Below are positions 13,466 to 45,194 of a stretch of DNA of 64,000 nt, in pieces. This stretch comes from Escherichia coli (GTDB lineage: Bacteria; Pseudomonadota; Gammaproteobacteria; Enterobacterales; Enterobacteriaceae): NCBI GenBank assembly GCA_002099625.1, contig GCA_002099625.1_4857.1. One strand, given 5' to 3'. The notes beneath the pieces are model-generated. The model had not been told where the DNA came from. It saw nothing but the letters and a program-made list of their open reading frames with translations, and made no database searches. Each line of letters starts with the position of its first letter. Position 1 is the stretch's first letter. Made by a program: the position numbers and the translations under genes.

Positions 13466-15643
13466 TTACGATAACGGTATCGTTGGCCGCACCCACGGTT
13501 TAGGGGCAGATTTGGTATACGGATTACATTCCATCATTTTACCGAGATACGCATCGTAATACACGAAGCGATCGACGTAGAACTTCTCCACCGGTGCACT
13601 ACTGGTAGCCGATTTCACCCGGTTGCGTTCCACAGCGAGGCTAATCGCCCCGGTAGGTGCGGGTTTTAGCGTGAACATTACCGCGCGGTTGTAACGCCAA
13701 GTGTCGTGCACAATATCAAACTCCGATACACAGTGTGCCATGATACCAAACAATGTGGTGGCTGGTAAGTTGGCTACAGCATCGCCGTATGGTGTTCCCA
13801 CCAAACCGCCGGGTATGTTTTGCTTTTTGAACAGCGTACCTGAAATAATCGTACCTAAGAACTCCACAACTACAGGTTTGGTTGGGTCGGTGACTTTATC
13901 TATCCCATCCGCACTGGCCAATCGGTTGGCATCTAAATCTGCGAGGTAGTCGAGGAACTCTTGGTACTCGTCGGTGACATTCGGTTTCACCGTTCCGACG
14001 GATACCCAGTTGACGATACTTTTATTCCCACCGACGGCTTCGCCTGCCATCCCAGGGCGAGTCCATGACATCCCGTCTTCACGACCGTAGACATAGACTG
14101 GCGAGCCGGTAGCCGGGGTGTTCCATTGCTCGAACGCTGTATATCGTCCCGGCTGGCCCCAATCCCCACCCGGACCGCCATAGTAGCGACTCTGGTAGCC
14201 GGTAAATTGTGCGACGACTAACTGGGTAGCACCGCCTTTGTCACGGGACCCAGCTAAGCCGTTACGGTTATTGGTGCCGCTGGGCACCGCCGCGCCTGGC
14301 CCGAGAGGCGCACCACCAGCTCCACCGATCTTGGTGGTGCTAAACGCATAGTAGTCGCCCCCACCCCCACCACCGGCGATGGTGCCGTAGTTTTCGATGG
14401 TGACTTTGCCGCGGAAGGTATCGGTAATGTGGATTGCGTCAGCTCCGTCTGCTGATGTGTTCGCAGGCAGAGAATAGACCATACCCGAACCACCACGACC
14501 AAGAATGGTTCCCCGGTTAACGAAGTTCCAAACCACCTCGCCAATTTGCGGCAATTCGTCGATAACGAACGTCGGTTTCAGGTTGCTGTCGCGATAAACG
14601 AAAGCCCCCGCATCTACGGTCACGTTAACAAACAAACGCCCGCACGCCGCATGGTTGGTCAACGTTGTGGCCCAGTAGCTGTCCGAAACTTGCGACGTGG
14701 TTGTGTAATTCAGGTTAAGGGTTTGCTCGTTATCTTGATAGCGTGCCACATTCAACGTGGCACTGCCCATGACTTTGTACGAACCCTCCACGGGTGCCAA
14801 TTGCACTTGTCTTGGCCACTCGCCTGTCAAGTTCTCTACAGGAGCAATTTCGTTTACATCAAAAACACTCCGAATGCCGAGTGTCTCGATGGCCAGAGCA
14901 TCGTGCAGGCTACCGGTGAAATCATCCGGGACGTATGTGGTTTTGCCTGCATATGTCTCGAGTTTGTTACGTGAAAAGAACACATACTTCGTCCCAAACA
15001 TCCCGCTCCCCGGTCTAGCGGTCAAAGCCACGACGCTGTTATACGCAGAGGTTTGGCCTATATCCTCCGGGGACATCGGGGCGCTGACATCGACTTTATC
15101 AAGATCCACGATCCGTTTGGCTGCATTAGAGTAGAAGTTAATCCACTGCTGTTTATTCGCAGCCTTTAGCGTGAGAATGATATTGGTAACAGTGTAGACG
15201 GTGTTGATATCCACGTCGCCGTTTATCACATCTAGCGTTTGGCTGCCGTACCAGACAAGACTTGTCTGTTTCGCCTGGAACGTGATGCGCGCAGCATTGT
15301 TTGTCCAAGTGATAGGCAGGTCTTCAAAGTCGTCGGTTAAAAAGGTAATCCCCAGTAAAGTGTCTAAATGCGGCAACAGTTCGTGAATGGATGCACAAGT
15401 GGGAATGGCATCCAACTTAACCTTAGCGAAATAATCAGCAATATTTTGCTTCGTGACTTGGGCCGTAATTTGACCGTAACTTGAATACCCCGGACCCCCT
15501 GTCAGTGTGACGTCTAGGGTTTTTTCGTCATGATGCTCCACGGACACCAGGCGAACGTTAGCGGGGTCTACTGCTTTGGCGACCGCGTTTTTACGGTTGA
15601 GCGACCGAATCACGGTCGCCACTAAATCAGGAGTGTAGGACAT
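13466..15643 (-). CDS. tail-fibre/tailspike-like protein with shared N-terminal module
   Basis: 725 aa, ATG start; N-terminus belongs to the shared module (..VIRSLNRKN...); internal Gly-rich tract GGGGGDYYAFSTTKIGGAGGAPLGPGAA. Confidence 0.65.
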   Translation of the reverse strand: MSYTPDLVATVIRSLNRKNAVAKAVDPANVRLVSVEHHDEKTLDVTLTGGPGYSSYGQITAQVTKQNIADYFAKVKLDAIPTCASIHELLPHLDTLLGITFLTDDFEDLPITWTNNAARITFQAKQTSLVWYGSQTLDVINGDVDINTVYTVTNIILTLKAANKQQWINFYSNAAKRIVDLDKVDVSAPMSPEDIGQTSAYNSVVALTARPGSGMFGTKYVFFSRNKLETYAGKTTYVPDDFTGSLHDALAIETLGIRSVFDVNEIAPVENLTGEWPRQVQLAPVEGSYKVMGSATLNVARYQDNEQTLNLNYTTTSQVSDSYWATTLTNHAACGRLFVNVTVDAGAFVYRDSNLKPTFVIDELPQIGEVVWNFVNRGTILGRGGSGMVYSLPANTSADGADAIHITDTFRGKVTIENYGTIAGGGGGGDYYAFSTTKIGGAGGAPLGPGAAVPSGTNNRNGLAGSRDKGGATQLVVAQFTGYQSRYYGGPGGDWGQPGRYTAFEQWNTPATGSPVYVYGREDGMSWTRPGMAGEAVGGNKSIVNWVSVGTVKPNVTDEYQEFLDYLADLDANRLASADGIDKVTDPTKPVVVEFLGTIISGTLFKKQNIPGGLVGTPYGDAVANLPATTLFGIMAHCVSEFDIVHDTWRYNRAVMFTLKPAPTGAISLAVERNRVKSATSSAPVEKFYVDRFVYYDAYLGKMMECNPYTKSAPKPWVRPTIPLS

Positions 15644-15657
15644 GGTGACACCTTAGT

Positions 15658-43245: not shown

Positions 43246-45194
43246 TATGCATCGTCTCCGTAGGTTAACACTGCATCATCACCGATGCATAAAACAGTTT
43301 CTTCATCCAGACTTGCCACAGCTTCTTTTTCATTAAACGCCGTGAATGTAAAGGTAGCCGTCCATGCCGGCGAATCGTCACTCATCGGTGCAATCAACGG
43401 CTCGTTTGTTGGTGTAATAACCCCTGTCGAGATGTCTTCACGTGACAAGTTTAAACCGCACAACTGGTTTACAACTGTCGCTAAATCAGCATAGGTGTCG
43501 CCGGGAGCTACAGTAACTAGTATCGGTCCTTGCGGGTCGATAATTTTATTAGCGACTAGACGGTCGTAATAGACGGTAACCTTCTTGCCGTTAGGTTTAC
43601 GTGCTTTTGCAATGTACGCTTGCGTGGTACGGGCACTTTCAACACCTAAGTCGATAGGCCCCACTCCGCTTATTACAATCTCGTCAGGCGATAATGACAA
43701 TCCGTTATCGTGATTAATTAACGCCACAACGAGGCCCTTGGAGTCTAATCTAAGGTCAGGTGTAAAACGATTAGGGGGACTGTATTTTGCATTCAGTGCA
43801 GGTTTATCAACTAACCAAAAGCCGCTTGGTACGCAGGCCAAAATCACCCAGGCGGTATTTGTTGTCGACGGCCAATTAGGTAAAGTGTCGTAAGTTGGGT
43901 CATCGCACGAATCGCGATAACCGTGTTCACCCAGGAGAACATCGATATTATTAATTAGTTCAATTGCCCTAGTATCGTTCCCTAATTGTCTTTCAAATAA
44001 GGCAACACCGGCAGTTCCTTCAACCCAAACGCCGTCGACCGCAGTCGGATAACCCAATTCAACCTTATAAGGTGTGTAACCGCTGCATTCGGACGTTACT
44101 GCTCGAAACTTTTCCATGTAGCTGTGACACTGCGAAGCCAGCTCCGGTTTGAACTTAGCGATAAACAATCCACCCCAGCTTGACTGGTCTAAAGCGGCAG
44201 CGTCGTCATCGACATCGGCTCTAACGCCTTGACGCAATCGACCCTCTTCTTCTATCCAAAACTTGTCTAAAATTAGATTGCCTAACTCTATCGCCTTCGC
44301 GGCGTAGCTATCAAATCCAACCCTTCCCAATATCTCGAATAAAAACCACAAATCAACACAATGTTCCAAGGCCGAGAACGGTGCTACATAATTTTCATCG
44401 AACGTTTGCGTACCATCGGGGTTTGTAATAAAGCGGCCTTTACCCCCGAGATATAAGCCGTATCTCCTATCGTTTACATCGCTAACACGGAATCCTTCAA
44501 CCCAACTGAGCGAAAGAGTGAGCTTACTCCTAACTTGACCAACTAAGGTGCCGTTTGGATATTTCTCTAGGTAAAAAGCAAGGGCGTATAATACCCATGC
44601 CACATTGCCCATCCGATAATAGTTACGTGGAGACTTGGCAGACAAACGATTTACATAAAACTTAATACCACCGTCTGTGTCCACTAAAGCACAAAGCCCT
44701 TTAACATATTTCTCAACGGCTCCGTGATCTATAGCCATTAGTGCTAAAGCTGCCACCGCCTGATCGTACGTGTAACATCGATCTTTCATTACCTTGATAA
44801 CATCAGGTTCGGCGTCGCTGGGCATTAAGTAACTGCGTATACATAGAGGAAATTCCAGGGTTGTAATCCACTCTCCAGTTGATATATTGATTAGTCTAAA
44901 CTGTTTAGCACCGGCCCACGTACGTTTAAAAGAAAACGCCCCTGAGGCATCAAGAGGGGCTTCACCTAGCAAATACTCCCCGGTGGTGTAAGCATACATT
45001 ACCACTTTGTGGTTTGTGGGGTTGGTAACGTTGCTTTTTCCCGTCACGACCCCGATATAATCGTAGTCTACATTCTGATCTACGGACAGACTTACACTCG
45101 GGTCGTAGACCTCAGGAAGATCCAAGGTTAGCATTGTCTCTGTAGTATATTCGACCAACTCAGCAAAGTTGCGGATTATAGGTTTCGTCGTCAC
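43245..45194 (-). CDS. tail protein with putative enzymatic domain and a C-terminal copy of the shared fibre module
   Basis: ORF 43245-45290 trimmed to GTG 45194 preceded by GGAGG (the longer ORF would run through the upstream terminator); helix-rich N-terminal region; C-terminal segment NGKKVTVYYDRLVANKII matches the module signature. Confidence 0.55.
   Translation of the reverse strand: MTTKPIIRNFAELVEYTTETMLTLDLPEVYDPSVSLSVDQNVDYDYIGVVTGKSNVTNPTNHKVVMYAYTTGEYLLGEAPLDASGAFSFKRTWAGAKQFRLINISTGEWITTLEFPLCIRSYLMPSDAEPDVIKVMKDRCYTYDQAVAALALMAIDHGAVEKYVKGLCALVDTDGGIKFYVNRLSAKSPRNYYRMGNVAWVLYALAFYLEKYPNGTLVGQVRSKLTLSLSWVEGFRVSDVNDRRYGLYLGGKGRFITNPDGTQTFDENYVAPFSALEHCVDLWFLFEILGRVGFDSYAAKAIELGNLILDKFWIEEEGRLRQGVRADVDDDAAALDQSSWGGLFIAKFKPELASQCHSYMEKFRAVTSECSGYTPYKVELGYPTAVDGVWVEGTAGVALFERQLGNDTRAIELINNIDVLLGEHGYRDSCDDPTYDTLPNWPSTTNTAWVILACVPSGFWLVDKPALNAKYSPPNRFTPDLRLDSKGLVVALINHDNGLSLSPDEIVISGVGPIDLGVESARTTQAYIAKARKPNGKKVTVYYDRLVANKIIDPQGPILVTVAPGDTYADLATVVNQLCGLNLSREDISTGVITPTNEPLIAPMSDDSPAWTATFTFTAFNEKEAVASLDEETVLCIGDDAVLTYGDDA

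What the first reader, a model, noticed from the sequence alone, without database searches (positions are those of the whole stretch)
13466..45194. Shared approx 85-aa module in at least 13 proteins, once at a C-terminus
The signature (LL..IN..NP ... RNT ... VYYDR.NL..LF) is N-terminal in 13466-15643, 15658-16977, the three 470-498-aa cassette proteins and the seven 280-aa paralogues. A related segment (NGKKVTVYYDRLVANKII) sits near the C-terminus of the 649-aa protein 43245-45194, downstream of a helix-rich putative enzymatic domain. A common docking module moved between N- and C-terminal positions implies modular domain shuffling onto one attachment site of the virion.
Basis: partly seen in the sequence, partly recalled or inferred. 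Interest (0 to 1): 0.6.

Follow-up and report, generated by a model that had tools for sequence, protein, structure and literature searches.

The report
Jumbo-phage DUF7941 module with reversed fusion
The shared segment is the known DUF7941 assembly domain of SPN3US-like giant phages, and the one "C-terminal" copy arose because a sugar-cleaving tail-fibre tip domain from other enterobacterial phages was grafted in front of a normally stand-alone copy, an order seen in only one other sequence found.

Summary
The window is an SPN3US-like Salmonella jumbo phage (95-97% nt identity, collinear).

**The module**
- It is about 145 aa, not 85, and is the N-terminal globular domain (NTD) of Pfam PF25613/DUF7941.
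- This is SPN3US "paralog family B", described in 2016-17.
- All 12 N-terminal copies pass Pfam's threshold.
- Further copies: a 175-aa protein at 10047-10574, a degenerate second copy inside 13466-15643, and a 30-codon relic at 17052-17144.

**The C-terminal copy in 43245-45194**
- It is real: HMM built without it gives E 1e-13, Pfam gives 6e-16.
- Its predicted fold has one significant PDB match, the phiKZ gp127 NTD (9XQD).
- The module did not move. This gene is the ortholog of SPN3US gp122, a stand-alone 177-aa module.
- 1466 nt replace 50 nt at its 5' end, grafting on a beta-sandwich plus (alpha/alpha)6 glycosidase-like domain.
- In 108 of the 110 related proteins found, that domain ends enterobacterial (pro)phage tail fibres.
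- I found one other protein with this order, in a metagenome contig.

**Interpretation**
"One attachment site" is not supported. Published proteomics find gp122-124 only in tailed particles, and the other family members equally in tailless ones. Chain assembly is the better-supported model. This is a known family with a new architecture variant.

The parts
32622..33419 (-). Full-length DUF7941 paralogue (NTD + linker + CTD), SPN3US gp138 ortholog. NTD at 33018-33416.
   Evidence: Pfam PF25613 E 3.9e-68, full length. HMM. CTD HMM.
31769..32611 (-). Full-length DUF7941 paralogue (gp139 ortholog). NTD at 32174-32608.
   Evidence: Pfam E 4.8e-71..
30913..31758 (-). Full-length DUF7941 paralogue (gp140 ortholog). 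NTD at 31309-31758.
   Evidence: Pfam E 1.5e-79..
29980..30891 (-). Full-length DUF7941 paralogue (gp141 ortholog, a highly abundant virion protein in SPN3US). NTD at 30427-30891.
   Evidence: Pfam E 4e-84. PMC5694885 Table 1. PMC10052503 Table S2.
29071..29928 (-). Full-length DUF7941 paralogue (gp142 ortholog). Likely start at ATG 29910. NTD at 29467-29910.
   Evidence: Pfam E 2.9e-80..
28173..29060 (-). Full-length DUF7941 paralogue (gp143 ortholog). NTD at 28611-29060.
   Evidence: Pfam E 2e-82..
27342..28172 (-). Full-length DUF7941 paralogue (gp144 ortholog). NTD at 27708-28169.
   Evidence: Pfam E 7.6e-88..
25882..27294 (-). Cassette head protein (470 aa): NTD (26851-27294), then a central domain shared with the two following genes, then a Pro-rich tether, then a C-terminal ...NGELNGFK peptide.
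   Evidence: Pfam E 1.3e-31 for residues 1-150. C-terminal motif. The shared central domain is inferred from the paralogous third cassette, where PHROG cross-hits were tested.
22429..23925 (-). Cassette head protein (498 aa). NTD at 23482-23925. C-terminal ...NGELDGFQ.
   Evidence: Pfam E 5.9e-30..
19071..20513 (-). Cassette head protein (480 aa). NTD at 20076-20513. C-terminal ...NGELNGF.
   Evidence: Pfam E 6.3e-22. phrog_3589 full length..
17052..17144 (-). 30-codon relic of a fourth cassette head gene (MGFYSSTALELLCRLIQRDNPQHAGRISWS*). It has its own AGGAG and is followed by a GC hairpin plus T-run at about 16989-17018.
   Evidence: HMM E 3.3e-5 for positions 1-29. Sequence read directly.
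15658..16977 (-). 439-aa protein (gp154 ortholog): NTD (16528-16977), a divergent linker/CTD region, and a C-terminal domain shared with the 725-aa protein.
   Evidence: Pfam E 1.5e-26 for residues 1-169. phrog_1037 residues 1-287 and phrog_6409 residues 308-436.
13466..15643 (-). 725-aa protein (gp155 ortholog): NTD (15230-15643), a degenerate second NTD (14873-15139), a Gp38-type glycine-rich adhesin domain (13985-14527), and a C-terminal phrog_6409 domain.
   Evidence: Pfam DUF7941 E 2.2e-23 (2 stretches) and PF05268 GP38 E 4.8e-18. Second HMM domain, independent E 7.6e-5..
43245..45194 (-). 649-aa fusion protein, the SPN3US gp122 ortholog. Cargo domain at 43785-45194: beta-sandwich (residues 36-114) plus (alpha/alpha)6 barrel (residues 130-460). 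DUF7941 NTD at 43308-43754. Acidic, disordered tail at 43248-43307.
43734..45199 (-). 1466-nt segment that replaces 50 nt of SPN3US (the start codon and first 15 codons of gp122). The flanks are 99.4% and 96.5% identical to SPN3US.
   Evidence: blastn. Junction sequences and protein alignment.
42772..43245 (-). 157-aa gp123-type tail fibre protein. It overlaps the stop of the fusion gene by 1 nt. Its N-terminal ~45-aa anchor (MA.PVKKKRLHEL..Y.GD...) is conserved downstream of every gp122-type gene examined.
   Evidence: Alignment A6.. Classed as Tail in PMC10052503 Table S2.
39751..42768 (-). 1005-aa gp124-type tail protein, the third member of the conserved gp122-gp123-gp124 trio.
   Evidence: phrog_2871. 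Synteny. Classed as Tail in PMC10052503 Table S2.
10047..10574 (-). 175-aa NTD-only protein (gp160 ortholog, highly abundant in SPN3US virions). NTD at 10329-10559. C-terminal ...KTDLSTTNGELDGFV.
   Evidence: HMM E 1e-6. Pfam E 9.7e-11, 42 bits. phrog_4862..

Best explanation
**Shown**
- The window is a Seoulvirus (SPN3US-like) jumbo-phage segment.
- The repeated segment is the ~145-aa N-terminal globular domain (NTD) of DUF7941, which is SPN3US "paralog family B".
- It occurs in these architectures:
  - seven NTD-linker-CTD proteins;
  - three cassette heads (NTD, central domain, tether, C-terminal NGELxGF peptide);
  - NTD-linker-CTD plus an extra domain (the 439-aa protein);
  - NTD-NTD'-Gp38 adhesin (the 725-aa protein);
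  - an NTD-only protein of 175 aa;
  - cargo-NTD (the 649-aa protein).
- The cargo-NTD protein arose by recombination at the resident stand-alone module gene (the gp122 ortholog). 1466 nt replace the start and first 15 codons.
- The graft is a beta-sandwich plus (alpha/alpha)6 six-hairpin glycosidase-like domain. In all but two of the 110 related (pro)phage proteins found, that domain is the distal C-terminal end of a tail fibre.

**Inferred**
- The NTD is a protein-protein assembly bead. It accepts a partner's linker/CTD or anchors to virion proteins.
- Family members therefore form non-covalent (or, in relatives, covalent tandem) chains on the outside of the virion, and these chains display host-binding cargo.
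- Cargo placed after the NTD replaces the linker/CTD and would end a chain.
- Cargo placed before the NTD leaves the C-terminal tail free. The gp122-type protein could then keep its normal partner while adding a glycan-degrading activity to the tail. That partner is most likely the gp123-type fibre encoded next to it, together with gp124.
For: **Identity of the module**
- Phage identity and collinearity with SPN3US.
- Pfam DUF7941 above threshold in all 14 proteins.
- The alignment profile hits PHIKZ127 in the PDB at E 6.7e-7.
- The predicted fold has 9xqd_0 as its only significant PDB match, and 86 jumbo-phage hits in BFVD.

**Origin of the fusion**
- Junction mapping.
- Cargo residues 7-468 are 58-60% identical to the distal domain of fibres with PF08400, PF12571, PF18668 or PF03406 N-termini.
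- Fold: rhamnosidase, GH63 and AGE-type barrels, E 2.5e-8.

**The fusion is maintained**
- P0001 (644 aa) has the same order.
- Its cargo is 68.6% identical to the window's, closer than any prophage domain (60%).
- Its module is only 34% identical.

**The NTD tolerates folded domains on both ends**
- 78 of 263 module proteins have more than one HMM stretch.
- Most of these are 2-3 full tandem copies.
- The window's own 725-aa protein is one example.

**External, host-facing role**
- The 725-aa protein carries a Gp38 adhesin domain.
- The 649-aa protein carries a tail-fibre distal domain.
- Goslar members carry CBM, GH and LRR domains, and gp22 forms filaments.
- The phiKZ gp127 NTD is modelled in the outer baseplate.

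**gp122-type pairing with fibres**
- The gene trio is conserved.
- The gp123-type N-terminal anchor is conserved, including on a 1532-aa T4-like long fibre in L005.
- gp122, gp123 and gp124 are all tail-dependent in SPN3US proteomics.
Against:
- SPN3US proteomics put gp138-155 and gp160 in tailless particles and class them as head proteins. A baseplate-anchored chain does not explain this.
- gp122 itself was called non-virion for low counts (7-8 PSM).
- The head-to-tail model rests on AlphaFold 3 predictions and negative stain of one Goslar protein, reported in a preprint.
- The phiKZ gp127 model was docked at about 4.4 Å.
- The resemblance between the C-terminal NGELxGF peptide and the post-NTD linker is not statistically significant.
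- The cargo's catalytic activity and substrate are unknown. Fold similarity is at 10-14% identity.
- The architecture census covers only the best 150 of 3352 representatives.
Confidence: 0.7

Rival explanations
1. One reading: the module is a plug that docks many alternative proteins onto one attachment site of the baseplate, and it moved from the N- to the C-terminus by shuffling.
For: The phiKZ gp127 NTD is modelled at one defined place, the end of the gp139 band in each star lobe. The module is N-terminal in 183 of 263 sampled proteins, as phage anchor domains usually are.
Against: - 14 module proteins are encoded in one phage, and two of them are among the high-abundance virion proteins.
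- Goslar is estimated to carry about 2500 copies per virion.
- In SPN3US, gp138-155 and gp160 are independent of the tail, while gp122 depends on it.
- Tandem arrays of the module exist.
- The junction map shows that cargo was added to a resident module gene, not that the module moved.
Confidence: 0.12
2. The family consists of head (internal or ejection) proteins, as first proposed for SPN3US paralog family B. The module would then target proteins to the capsid, and the fusion would carry an enzyme into or onto the head.
For: gp138-155, gp160 and gp83 have equal or higher normalised PSMs in purified tailless particles of two different mutants.
Against: - Family members are fused to a Gp38-type adhesin and to a tail-fibre distal glycosidase-like domain. 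In Goslar they are fused to CBM, GH and LRR domains. These only make sense outside the particle.
- None of gp138-155 or gp160 is among the proteins the papers list as cleaved by the prohead protease.
- phiKZ gp127 lies in the baseplate.
- Self-assembling filaments could co-purify with heads. External attachment to the head or neck is not excluded, and it is compatible with my main explanation.
Confidence: 0.1
3. The 649-aa ORF is an accident: an assembly chimera or a recent, non-functional recombinant with no selected function.
For: No phage in INPHARED or IMG/VR, and no cluster in the 5.8-billion-cluster protein set, holds this exact fusion.
Against: - The junction is clean and in frame. It keeps the native RBS, and the flanks are 99.4% and 96.5% SPN3US-like.
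- P0001, from an independent sample, has the same order despite 34% module identity. It sits in an intact fibre gene cluster.
- The cargo domain is predicted with pLDDT above 90 and keeps the family's conserved motifs.
Confidence: 0.05

Closest known systems
SPN3US paralog family B (gps 83, 138-154, 160/161, 237, with gp122 as a suspected member; Thomas et al. 2016, Ali et al. 2017 PMC5694885, PMC10052503)
   Same: These are the same genes. The window is collinear with SPN3US at 95-97% nt identity, and 13466-33419 corresponds to gp155-gp138. The 2017 paper already suspected gp122 to be a member, from PSI-BLAST.
   Different: In SPN3US gp122 is a 177-aa stand-alone module. Here it carries a 470-aa N-terminal graft. 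The family as defined by PSI-BLAST also includes the 300- and 332-aa cassette partners, which lack the module. The papers class the family as head proteins.
Pfam PF25613 DUF7941; Goslar gp22/gp23 and eight other members (bioRxiv 10.64898/2026.04.21.720040)
   Same: The domain is the same: NTD, linker and CTD in the seven ~280-aa proteins, an NTD-only form like gp23, and an N-terminal NTD followed by host-recognition domains as in Goslar gp86, gp92 and gp161.
   Different: In its text on domain architectures the preprint describes only N-terminal modules followed by cargo. A cargo-NTD order is not mentioned.
phiKZ gp127 (PDB 9XQD chain 0; PMC13250141)
   Same: Same fold. It is the only significant PDB match, at E 1.1e-8, and covers all 150 modelled residues. 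There is also a profile hit at E 6.7e-7. Like gp122 it appears to be low-copy and tail-associated.
   Different: About 20% identity. gp127 is a full-length NTD-linker-CTD protein without cargo. I found no sequence-detectable counterpart of its neighbours among solved structures for the window's gp123- and gp124-type proteins.
Distal domain of enterobacterial (pro)phage side tail fibres, e.g. phiSTEC1575-Stx2k tail protein WCJ00198.1 (609 aa, PF08400 N-terminus)
   Same: 58-60% identity over residues 7-468. It is the whole domain, up to those proteins' last residues.
   Different: In those fibres the domain is C-terminal, behind an N-terminal virion anchor and a coiled coil. Here it starts at residue 1, has no anchor or shaft, and is followed by the DUF7941 NTD.
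T2/T6/S16-type Gp38 tail-fibre adhesin (PF05268)
   Same: The glycine-rich adhesin domain is present in the 725-aa protein 13466-15643 (E 4.8e-18).
   Different: It is attached to two DUF7941 NTDs rather than being a separate adhesin bound to a long tail fibre tip.

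Membership tests
Pfam PF25613 DUF7941 (NTD part) | Sequence match to the family HMM above the gathering score (27 bits). | tested here: met
   All 14 proteins: 42-295 bits. The C-terminal copy scores 59 bits, E 6.3e-16.
Pfam PF25613 DUF7941 (NTD part) | Fold of the solved member (phiKZ gp127 NTD, 9XQD). | tested here: met
   Tested for the C-terminal copy only. Foldseek E 1.1e-8, TM 0.57/0.65, 150/150 residues, and no other hit below E 0.25. The model was built with an alignment that contains the paralogues.
Pfam PF25613 DUF7941 (NTD part) | Occurrence in phiKZ-like/chimallivirus-type jumbo phages. 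| tested here: met
   The window is a Seoulvirus. The named BFVD hits are all jumbo phages.
Pfam PF25613 DUF7941 (NTD part) | Head-to-tail oligomerisation, with the linker/CTD of one protomer docking on the NTD of the next. | not testable with these tools
   Only single-chain prediction was available. The indirect support is the tandem covalent arrays in relatives.
Full-length DUF7941 (NTD + linker + CTD) | Presence of the C-terminal globular domain. | tested here: not met
   This result is for the 649-aa protein, the three cassette heads, the 725-aa protein and the 175-aa protein. The CTD HMM finds only the seven ~280-aa paralogues. The 439-aa protein matches phrog_1037 over its full length but not the CTD HMM.
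SPN3US paralog family B / gp122 ortholog | Orthologous position and sequence. | tested here: met
   Flanks are 99.4% and 96.5% identical. The module is 93-95% identical at the protein level to SPN3US-type gp122. Neighbours are the same.
Six-hairpin (alpha/alpha)6 glycosidase superfamily (cargo domain) | (alpha/alpha)6 barrel fold. | tested here: met
   pLDDT above 90 for residues 1-470. Foldseek hits 4xhc rhamnosidase at E 2.5e-8. Cellobiose 2-epimerase, YihS and GH63 hits give target TM of 0.52-0.61.
Six-hairpin (alpha/alpha)6 glycosidase superfamily (cargo domain) | Catalytic acid/base residues and glycan-cleaving activity. | not tested
   Conserved acidic motifs (EHxxDxWFLF, LDxSSWGG, GVWxEG) are visible in alignment A3. 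They were not mapped onto an active site.
Enterobacterial prophage side tail fibre (PF08400-type) | N-terminal virion anchor domain (PF08400, PF12571 or PF18668) preceding the distal domain. | tested here: not met
   Pfam finds only DUF7941 in the 649-aa protein. The homology starts at residue 7.
Gp38 adhesin (PF05268), for the 725-aa protein | Match above the gathering score (25 bits). | tested here: met
   66 bits, E 4.8e-18, residues 373-553. phrog_2056, host specificity.

The most novel reading that the evidence does not exclude
The DUF7941 NTD is a two-ended connector. Cargo behind it ends a chain, while cargo in front of it leaves the C-terminal tail free. On this reading the gp122-type protein is the tail-resident member that holds the gp123-type fibre. 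In this phage it has become a receptor-degrading protein attached to the virion through its C-terminal rather than its N-terminal part. The locus would be a hot spot for swapping host-range domains in SPN3US-like phages.
Probability: 0.3. Interest if true: 0.55.

Novelty: new variant of a known kind. Interest (0 to 1): 0.4.

Why it matters
**An open question about location.** The DUF7941 / paralog-B family is a large set of virion proteins in SPN3US-like phages: 14 module-bearing genes in this window alone. Their location and role are disputed.
- SPN3US proteomics class them as head proteins.
- phiKZ cryo-EM places gp127 in the outer baseplate.
- The Goslar preprint proposes an external cloud of host-recognition fibres.

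**What this window adds.** Two natural fusions bear on that dispute. One joins the module to a Gp38-type adhesin. The other joins it to a tail-fibre tip domain with a glycosidase-like fold. Both only make sense if the module is exposed on the outside of the particle.

**A testable candidate.**
- The graft at the gp122 locus is a concrete host-range determinant that differs from SPN3US by one 1.47-kb segment.
- It shows that the module tolerates cargo on either end.
- This could matter for engineering receptor-binding domains onto jumbo phages.

The shared module and the gp122 membership are not themselves new.

Tried and rejected
1. **Is the DUF7941 CTD a diverged copy of the NTD?** hhalign of A1 against A5 gives probability 0.5%. 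Rejected.
2. **Is the C-terminal peptide K[TI]DLSTTNGEL[DN]GF the same element as the post-NTD linker (VVTNTELSGLLYP)?**
   - An HMM of the peptide finds the four C-terminal copies in the window at E 6e-14 to 4e-3.
   - It finds the linkers only at E 29-74, out of register.
   - This is a visual resemblance only and is not supported.
3. **Do phages 1252, SPLA3 and SPLA1a keep a remnant of the glycosidase-like domain upstream of gp122?** tblastn matched from residue 443. This is a spurious extension into the translated intergenic region, and the DNA homology stops at the same junctions. Rejected.
4. **Full-length structure model.** The module part had pLDDT 35-75 because only about 10 module sequences aligned. 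I repeated the prediction on the module alone with 67 sequences.
5. **Alignment A2.** It misplaced most of the short module proteins and was discarded in favour of A3.
6. **PDB sequence searches** with the 649-aa, 1005-aa and 157-aa proteins gave nothing significant.
7. **A weak HMM hit at 63114-63767** (E 0.29) has no Pfam support. It is not a member.
8. **The word-indexed protein search with the module profile** returned mostly close orthologs and missed P0001. The gp122-type single-sequence search found 16 clusters of 116-193 aa, none with cargo, and also missed P0001.
9. **A literature search for six-hairpin tail fibres** found nothing.
10. **Pfam on the window-specific ORFs** at 34306-36562 found nothing.

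Full report
**1. What the window is**

All genes between 10 and 48 kb lie on the minus strand. Megablast places the window in the SPN3US group of Salmonella jumbo phages (Seoulvirus). It is collinear with SPN3US 87.5-148.8 kb at 95-97% identity. There are four exceptions:
- an insertion at 60524-60975;
- the segment 43734-45199;
- a diverged stretch at 36163-36553;
- an insertion at 34917-35707.

In the original numbering these are gp155-gp138, since gpN = 266 minus the RefSeq number. That rule is anchored on the major capsid protein, gp75 = ACQ60_gp191.

**2. Check of the observation**

The similarity continues for about 145 residues.
- I scanned all 1163 six-frame ORFs, filters off, with an HMM built from those 12 copies. 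Three things that were not in the HMM came back:
  - residues 485-618 of the 649-aa protein (E 1.2e-13, HMM positions 7-146);
  - the 175-aa protein 10047-10574 (E 1e-6);
  - a 35-residue open frame at 17055-17159 (E 3e-5).
- It also found a second, degenerate copy in the 725-aa protein (independent E 7.6e-5).
- Pfam confirms every one independently as PF25613 DUF7941:
  - the seven ~280-aa proteins match the whole 276-position model;
  - the others match only positions 1 to about 165.
- A CTD HMM finds the second half of the family only in those seven proteins.
- The module is therefore the N-terminal domain (NTD) of DUF7941.

**3. Fold**

- A profile of the module hits one solved chain, PHIKZ127 (9xqd_0), at E 6.7e-7.
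- In the first full-length model of the 649-aa protein, residues 1-470 were confident but the module was poor, because the alignment was shallow there.
- Re-predicted alone with 67 sequences, the C-terminal module reaches pLDDT 85. It has a globular alpha/beta core (residues 10-150) and a disordered tail.
- Foldseek against the PDB returns 9xqd_0 as the only significant hit, at E 1.1e-8 and covering all 150 modelled residues. The next hit is at E 0.25.
- Against BFVD it returns 86 hits at E ≤ 1e-3. All the named ones come from jumbo phages: Eowyn, Moabite, RAY, PhiPA3, PhiEaH1 and EarlPhillipIV.

**4. How the C-terminal copy arose**

- In SPN3US the orthologous gene (gp122, ACQ60_gp144) encodes a 177-aa stand-alone module.
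- blastn shows window 46200-45200 is 99.4% identical to SPN3US and window 43733-43000 is 96.5% identical. Between them, 1466 nt in the window replace 50 nt of SPN3US.
- The left junction is just after the shared GGAGG. The window gene starts with its own GTG at 45194.
- The right junction lies around codon 15 of gp122, where the protein sequence is similar but more diverged (NRFTPDLRLDSKG against DRYQPDLTLSSKA). Beyond that point identity is 95%.
- So the module did not move. A ~470-aa domain was grafted onto the front of a resident module gene.

**5. What was grafted**

- Residues 7-468 are 58% identical to the C-terminal part of the tail protein of E. coli phage phiSTEC1575-Stx2k, which is encoded after J and lom. 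They are 53% identical to a protein of jumbo phage ph0011.
- In the 5.8-billion-cluster protein set, 110 of 111 hits carry this domain behind classical fibre N-termini (PF08400, PF12571, PF18668 or PF03406). In nearly all of them it runs to the last residues (..FWNV....RY). One protein, P0105, extends beyond it.
- The model is a beta-sandwich (residues 36-114) plus an (alpha/alpha)6 barrel (residues 130-460) with pLDDT above 90. Its best structural matches are the Klebsiella rhamnosidase 4xhc, cellobiose 2-epimerase and YihS-type barrels, and GH63 (E 2.5e-8 to 1e-5, 10-14% identity).
- I read it as a glycan-acting, probably depolymerising, fibre tip. Activity and substrate are untested.

**6. 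Is the fusion real and maintained?**

- P0001 was the only protein with the same order that I found (644 aa, Logan SRR5831594, 59.8-kb contig; 59% identity over the full length).
- Its cargo is 68.6% identical to the window's. That is closer than either cargo is to any prophage version (about 60%). Its module is only 34% identical, whereas the window's module is 93% SPN3US-like.
- This pattern suggests the fusion arose in a jumbo-phage lineage and that the cargo later moved between such phages by recombination within or near the module start.
- I found no other instance in any of these searches:
  - INPHARED;
  - IMG/VR;
  - 16 gp122-type clusters, all 116-193 aa;
  - the 263 module proteins I could inspect.

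**7. The family at large**

An exhaustive profile search finds 3352 representatives at E ≤ 1e-3. I re-scanned the best 150 together with the other proteins fetched, which gave 263 with the module:

| Architecture | Proteins |
|---|---|
| One N-terminal module | 183 |
| More than one HMM stretch, mostly 2-3 full tandem copies 20-30 residues apart | 78 |
| Single C-terminal module behind other sequence (P0001) | 1 |
| Single short internal partial match (P0224, 162 aa, independent E 2e-3) | 1 |

- One protein in the multi-copy group shows stretches in 13 places.
- The tandem arrays show directly that an NTD can have a folded domain on its N-terminal side.
- The sample is biased towards the highest scores.

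**8. What is known about function**

- The Goslar preprint reports the following:
  - DUF7941 is specific to chimalliviruses and consists of NTD, linker and CTD;
  - AlphaFold 3 predicts that one protomer's linker and CTD dock on the next protomer's NTD;
  - gp22 forms filaments in negative stain;
  - there are about 2500 copies per virion;
  - three members have an N-terminal module followed by CBM, GH or LRR domains;
  - it proposes a fibre cloud anchored on the peripheral baseplate.
- The phiKZ atlas places one gp127 per star lobe, at the end of a band of five gp139 dimers.
- The SPN3US papers defined the same proteins as paralog family B and suspected gp122 to be a member. They assign the family to the head, because its members appear in tailless particles.
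- Their Table S2 gives these peptide-spectrum matches in three replicates each:

| Protein | Wild type | Tailless particles | Class given by the paper |
|---|---|---|---|
| gp122 | 7 / 7 / 8 | 0 / 0 / 0 | non-virion (low count) |
| gp123 | 16 / 16 / 23 | 0 / 0 / 0 | Tail |
| gp124 | 186 / 185 / 159 | 8 / 9 / 3 | Tail |
| gp138-155, gp160, gp83 | present | similar in raw counts (normalised ratio 0.9-1.7) | Head |

- Among the last group, gp141 has about 750 PSMs per replicate and gp160 about 580.
- The Goslar preprint does not mention SPN3US or tailless particles.
- So the family does not share one attachment site. The gp122-type member depends on the tail and the others do not.

**9. Context of the gp122-type gene**

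- The trio of a ~180-aa module, a ~157-aa fibre protein and a ~1000-aa tail protein is conserved in SPN3US, Lh1B, pEa_SNUABM_29 and Erwinia phage Asesino. The genes abut or overlap. In the window they share nucleotide 43245.
- In the P0001 contig there are two gp122-type genes, a 186-aa stand-alone one and the 644-aa fusion. Each is followed by a gene whose first ~45 residues match the gp123-type N-terminus.
- One of those two following genes encodes a 1532-aa T4-like long fibre (Phage_fiber_2, Gp34_trimer, Peptidase_S74), and a Gp38_N protein is encoded after it.
- The anchor MA.PVKKKRLHEL..Y.GD... is conserved in all six proteins examined, while their distal parts differ.
- I infer from this that the gp122-type NTD and the gp123-type N-terminus work together at a tail site where fibre tips are exchanged. 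No interaction was tested.

**10. Best explanation and its limits**

- **Shown:**
  - the identity of the module;
  - its copies and architectures;
  - the recombination junctions;
  - the origin and fold of the graft;
  - its rarity in the data I could reach.
- **Inferred:**
  - the NTD is an assembly bead on the outside of the particle;
  - cargo behind it replaces the linker and CTD and would end a chain;
  - cargo in front of it leaves the C-terminal tail free.
- The fusions to a Gp38 adhesin and to a fibre tip domain argue for an external, host-facing location. This argument holds whether the chains hang from the baseplate, the neck or the head.
- The head-fraction proteomics remain unexplained by the baseplate model. 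This is the main open point.

**11. Novelty**

- Already published:
  - the shared module;
  - its multiplicity in SPN3US;
  - the suspicion that gp122 is a member;
  - the N-terminal-module-plus-cargo architecture.
- Not found anywhere else:
  - the cargo-NTD order;
  - its junction map;
  - the link to enterobacterial prophage fibre tips;
  - the gp122/gp123-anchor pairing.
- I rate this a new variant of a known kind, of moderate interest.

Noticed in passing
window 17052-17144 (-), hairpin at about 16989-17018: A 30-codon ORF with its own AGGAG encodes the first 29 residues of a cassette head protein (MGFYSSTALELLCRLIQRDNPQHAGRISWS*). A GC hairpin plus T-run follows it. It looks like the relic of a deleted fourth cassette between the third cassette and the 439-aa gene.
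   Followed up: partly
window 10050-10091, 19074-19115, 22432-22476, 25885-25929 (C-termini of four proteins): A conserved extreme C-terminal peptide, K[TI]DLSTTNGEL[DN]GF, ends the three cassette heads and the 175-aa NTD-only protein. Among relatives, 57 of 263 module proteins carry it within 6 residues of the C-terminus, against 0 of 110 controls. It may be a docking peptide. Its likeness to the post-NTD linker is not significant.
   Followed up: partly
window 17156-19060, 20525-22416, 23939-25870 (-): Each cassette head is followed by a ~330-aa and a ~300-310-aa protein with no Pfam match. In the third cassette, both partners share a central domain with the head protein (phrog_1062/phrog_3589 cross-hits). 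The GPGP..L..GD...GYFG motif is visible in the three heads and the ~300-aa partners. From the sequence, their N-termini look like a small beta domain. The SPN3US papers count them in paralog family B although they lack the DUF7941 module.
   Followed up: partly
window 13466-13960 and 15658-16050 (-): The 725-aa and 439-aa proteins share a C-terminal domain (phrog_6409) and end alike (..YTKSAPKPWVRPTIPLS and ..YSKTAPVPWYPPL).
   Followed up: no
L005 4046-12555 (Logan SRR5831594 contig): At the gp122 locus of a more distant relative there are two gp122-type genes. Between them lie a 1532-aa T4-like long fibre carrying the gp123-type N-terminal anchor and a Gp38_N protein. There is no ~1000-aa gp124-type gene downstream. 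The locus looks like a hot spot for fibre exchange.
   Followed up: partly
P0371, P0275, P0265, P0225-P0229 (metagenomic relatives): Some relatives are covalent arrays of the module. Three full copies are common. P0371 (1166 aa) and P0275 (1496 aa) show 13 and 8 HMM stretches, partly overlapping at about 70-residue spacing, which may mean that a half-domain is the repeat unit there.
   Followed up: no
window 34917-35707, 36163-36553, 60524-60975: These three segments have no megablast match in SPN3US at the collinear position. One is a ~790-nt insertion covering ORFs 34924-35352 and part of 35342-36145, which have no Pfam match. One is a diverged ~390-nt stretch. One is a ~450-nt insertion within ORF 60522-61016.
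   Followed up: partly
literature: PMC10052503 Table S2 against PMC13250141 and bioRxiv 10.64898/2026.04.21.720040: The published placements of this family disagree. SPN3US proteomics of tailless particles give head. phiKZ cryo-EM and the Goslar proposal give peripheral baseplate. The Goslar preprint does not mention SPN3US.
   Followed up: partly
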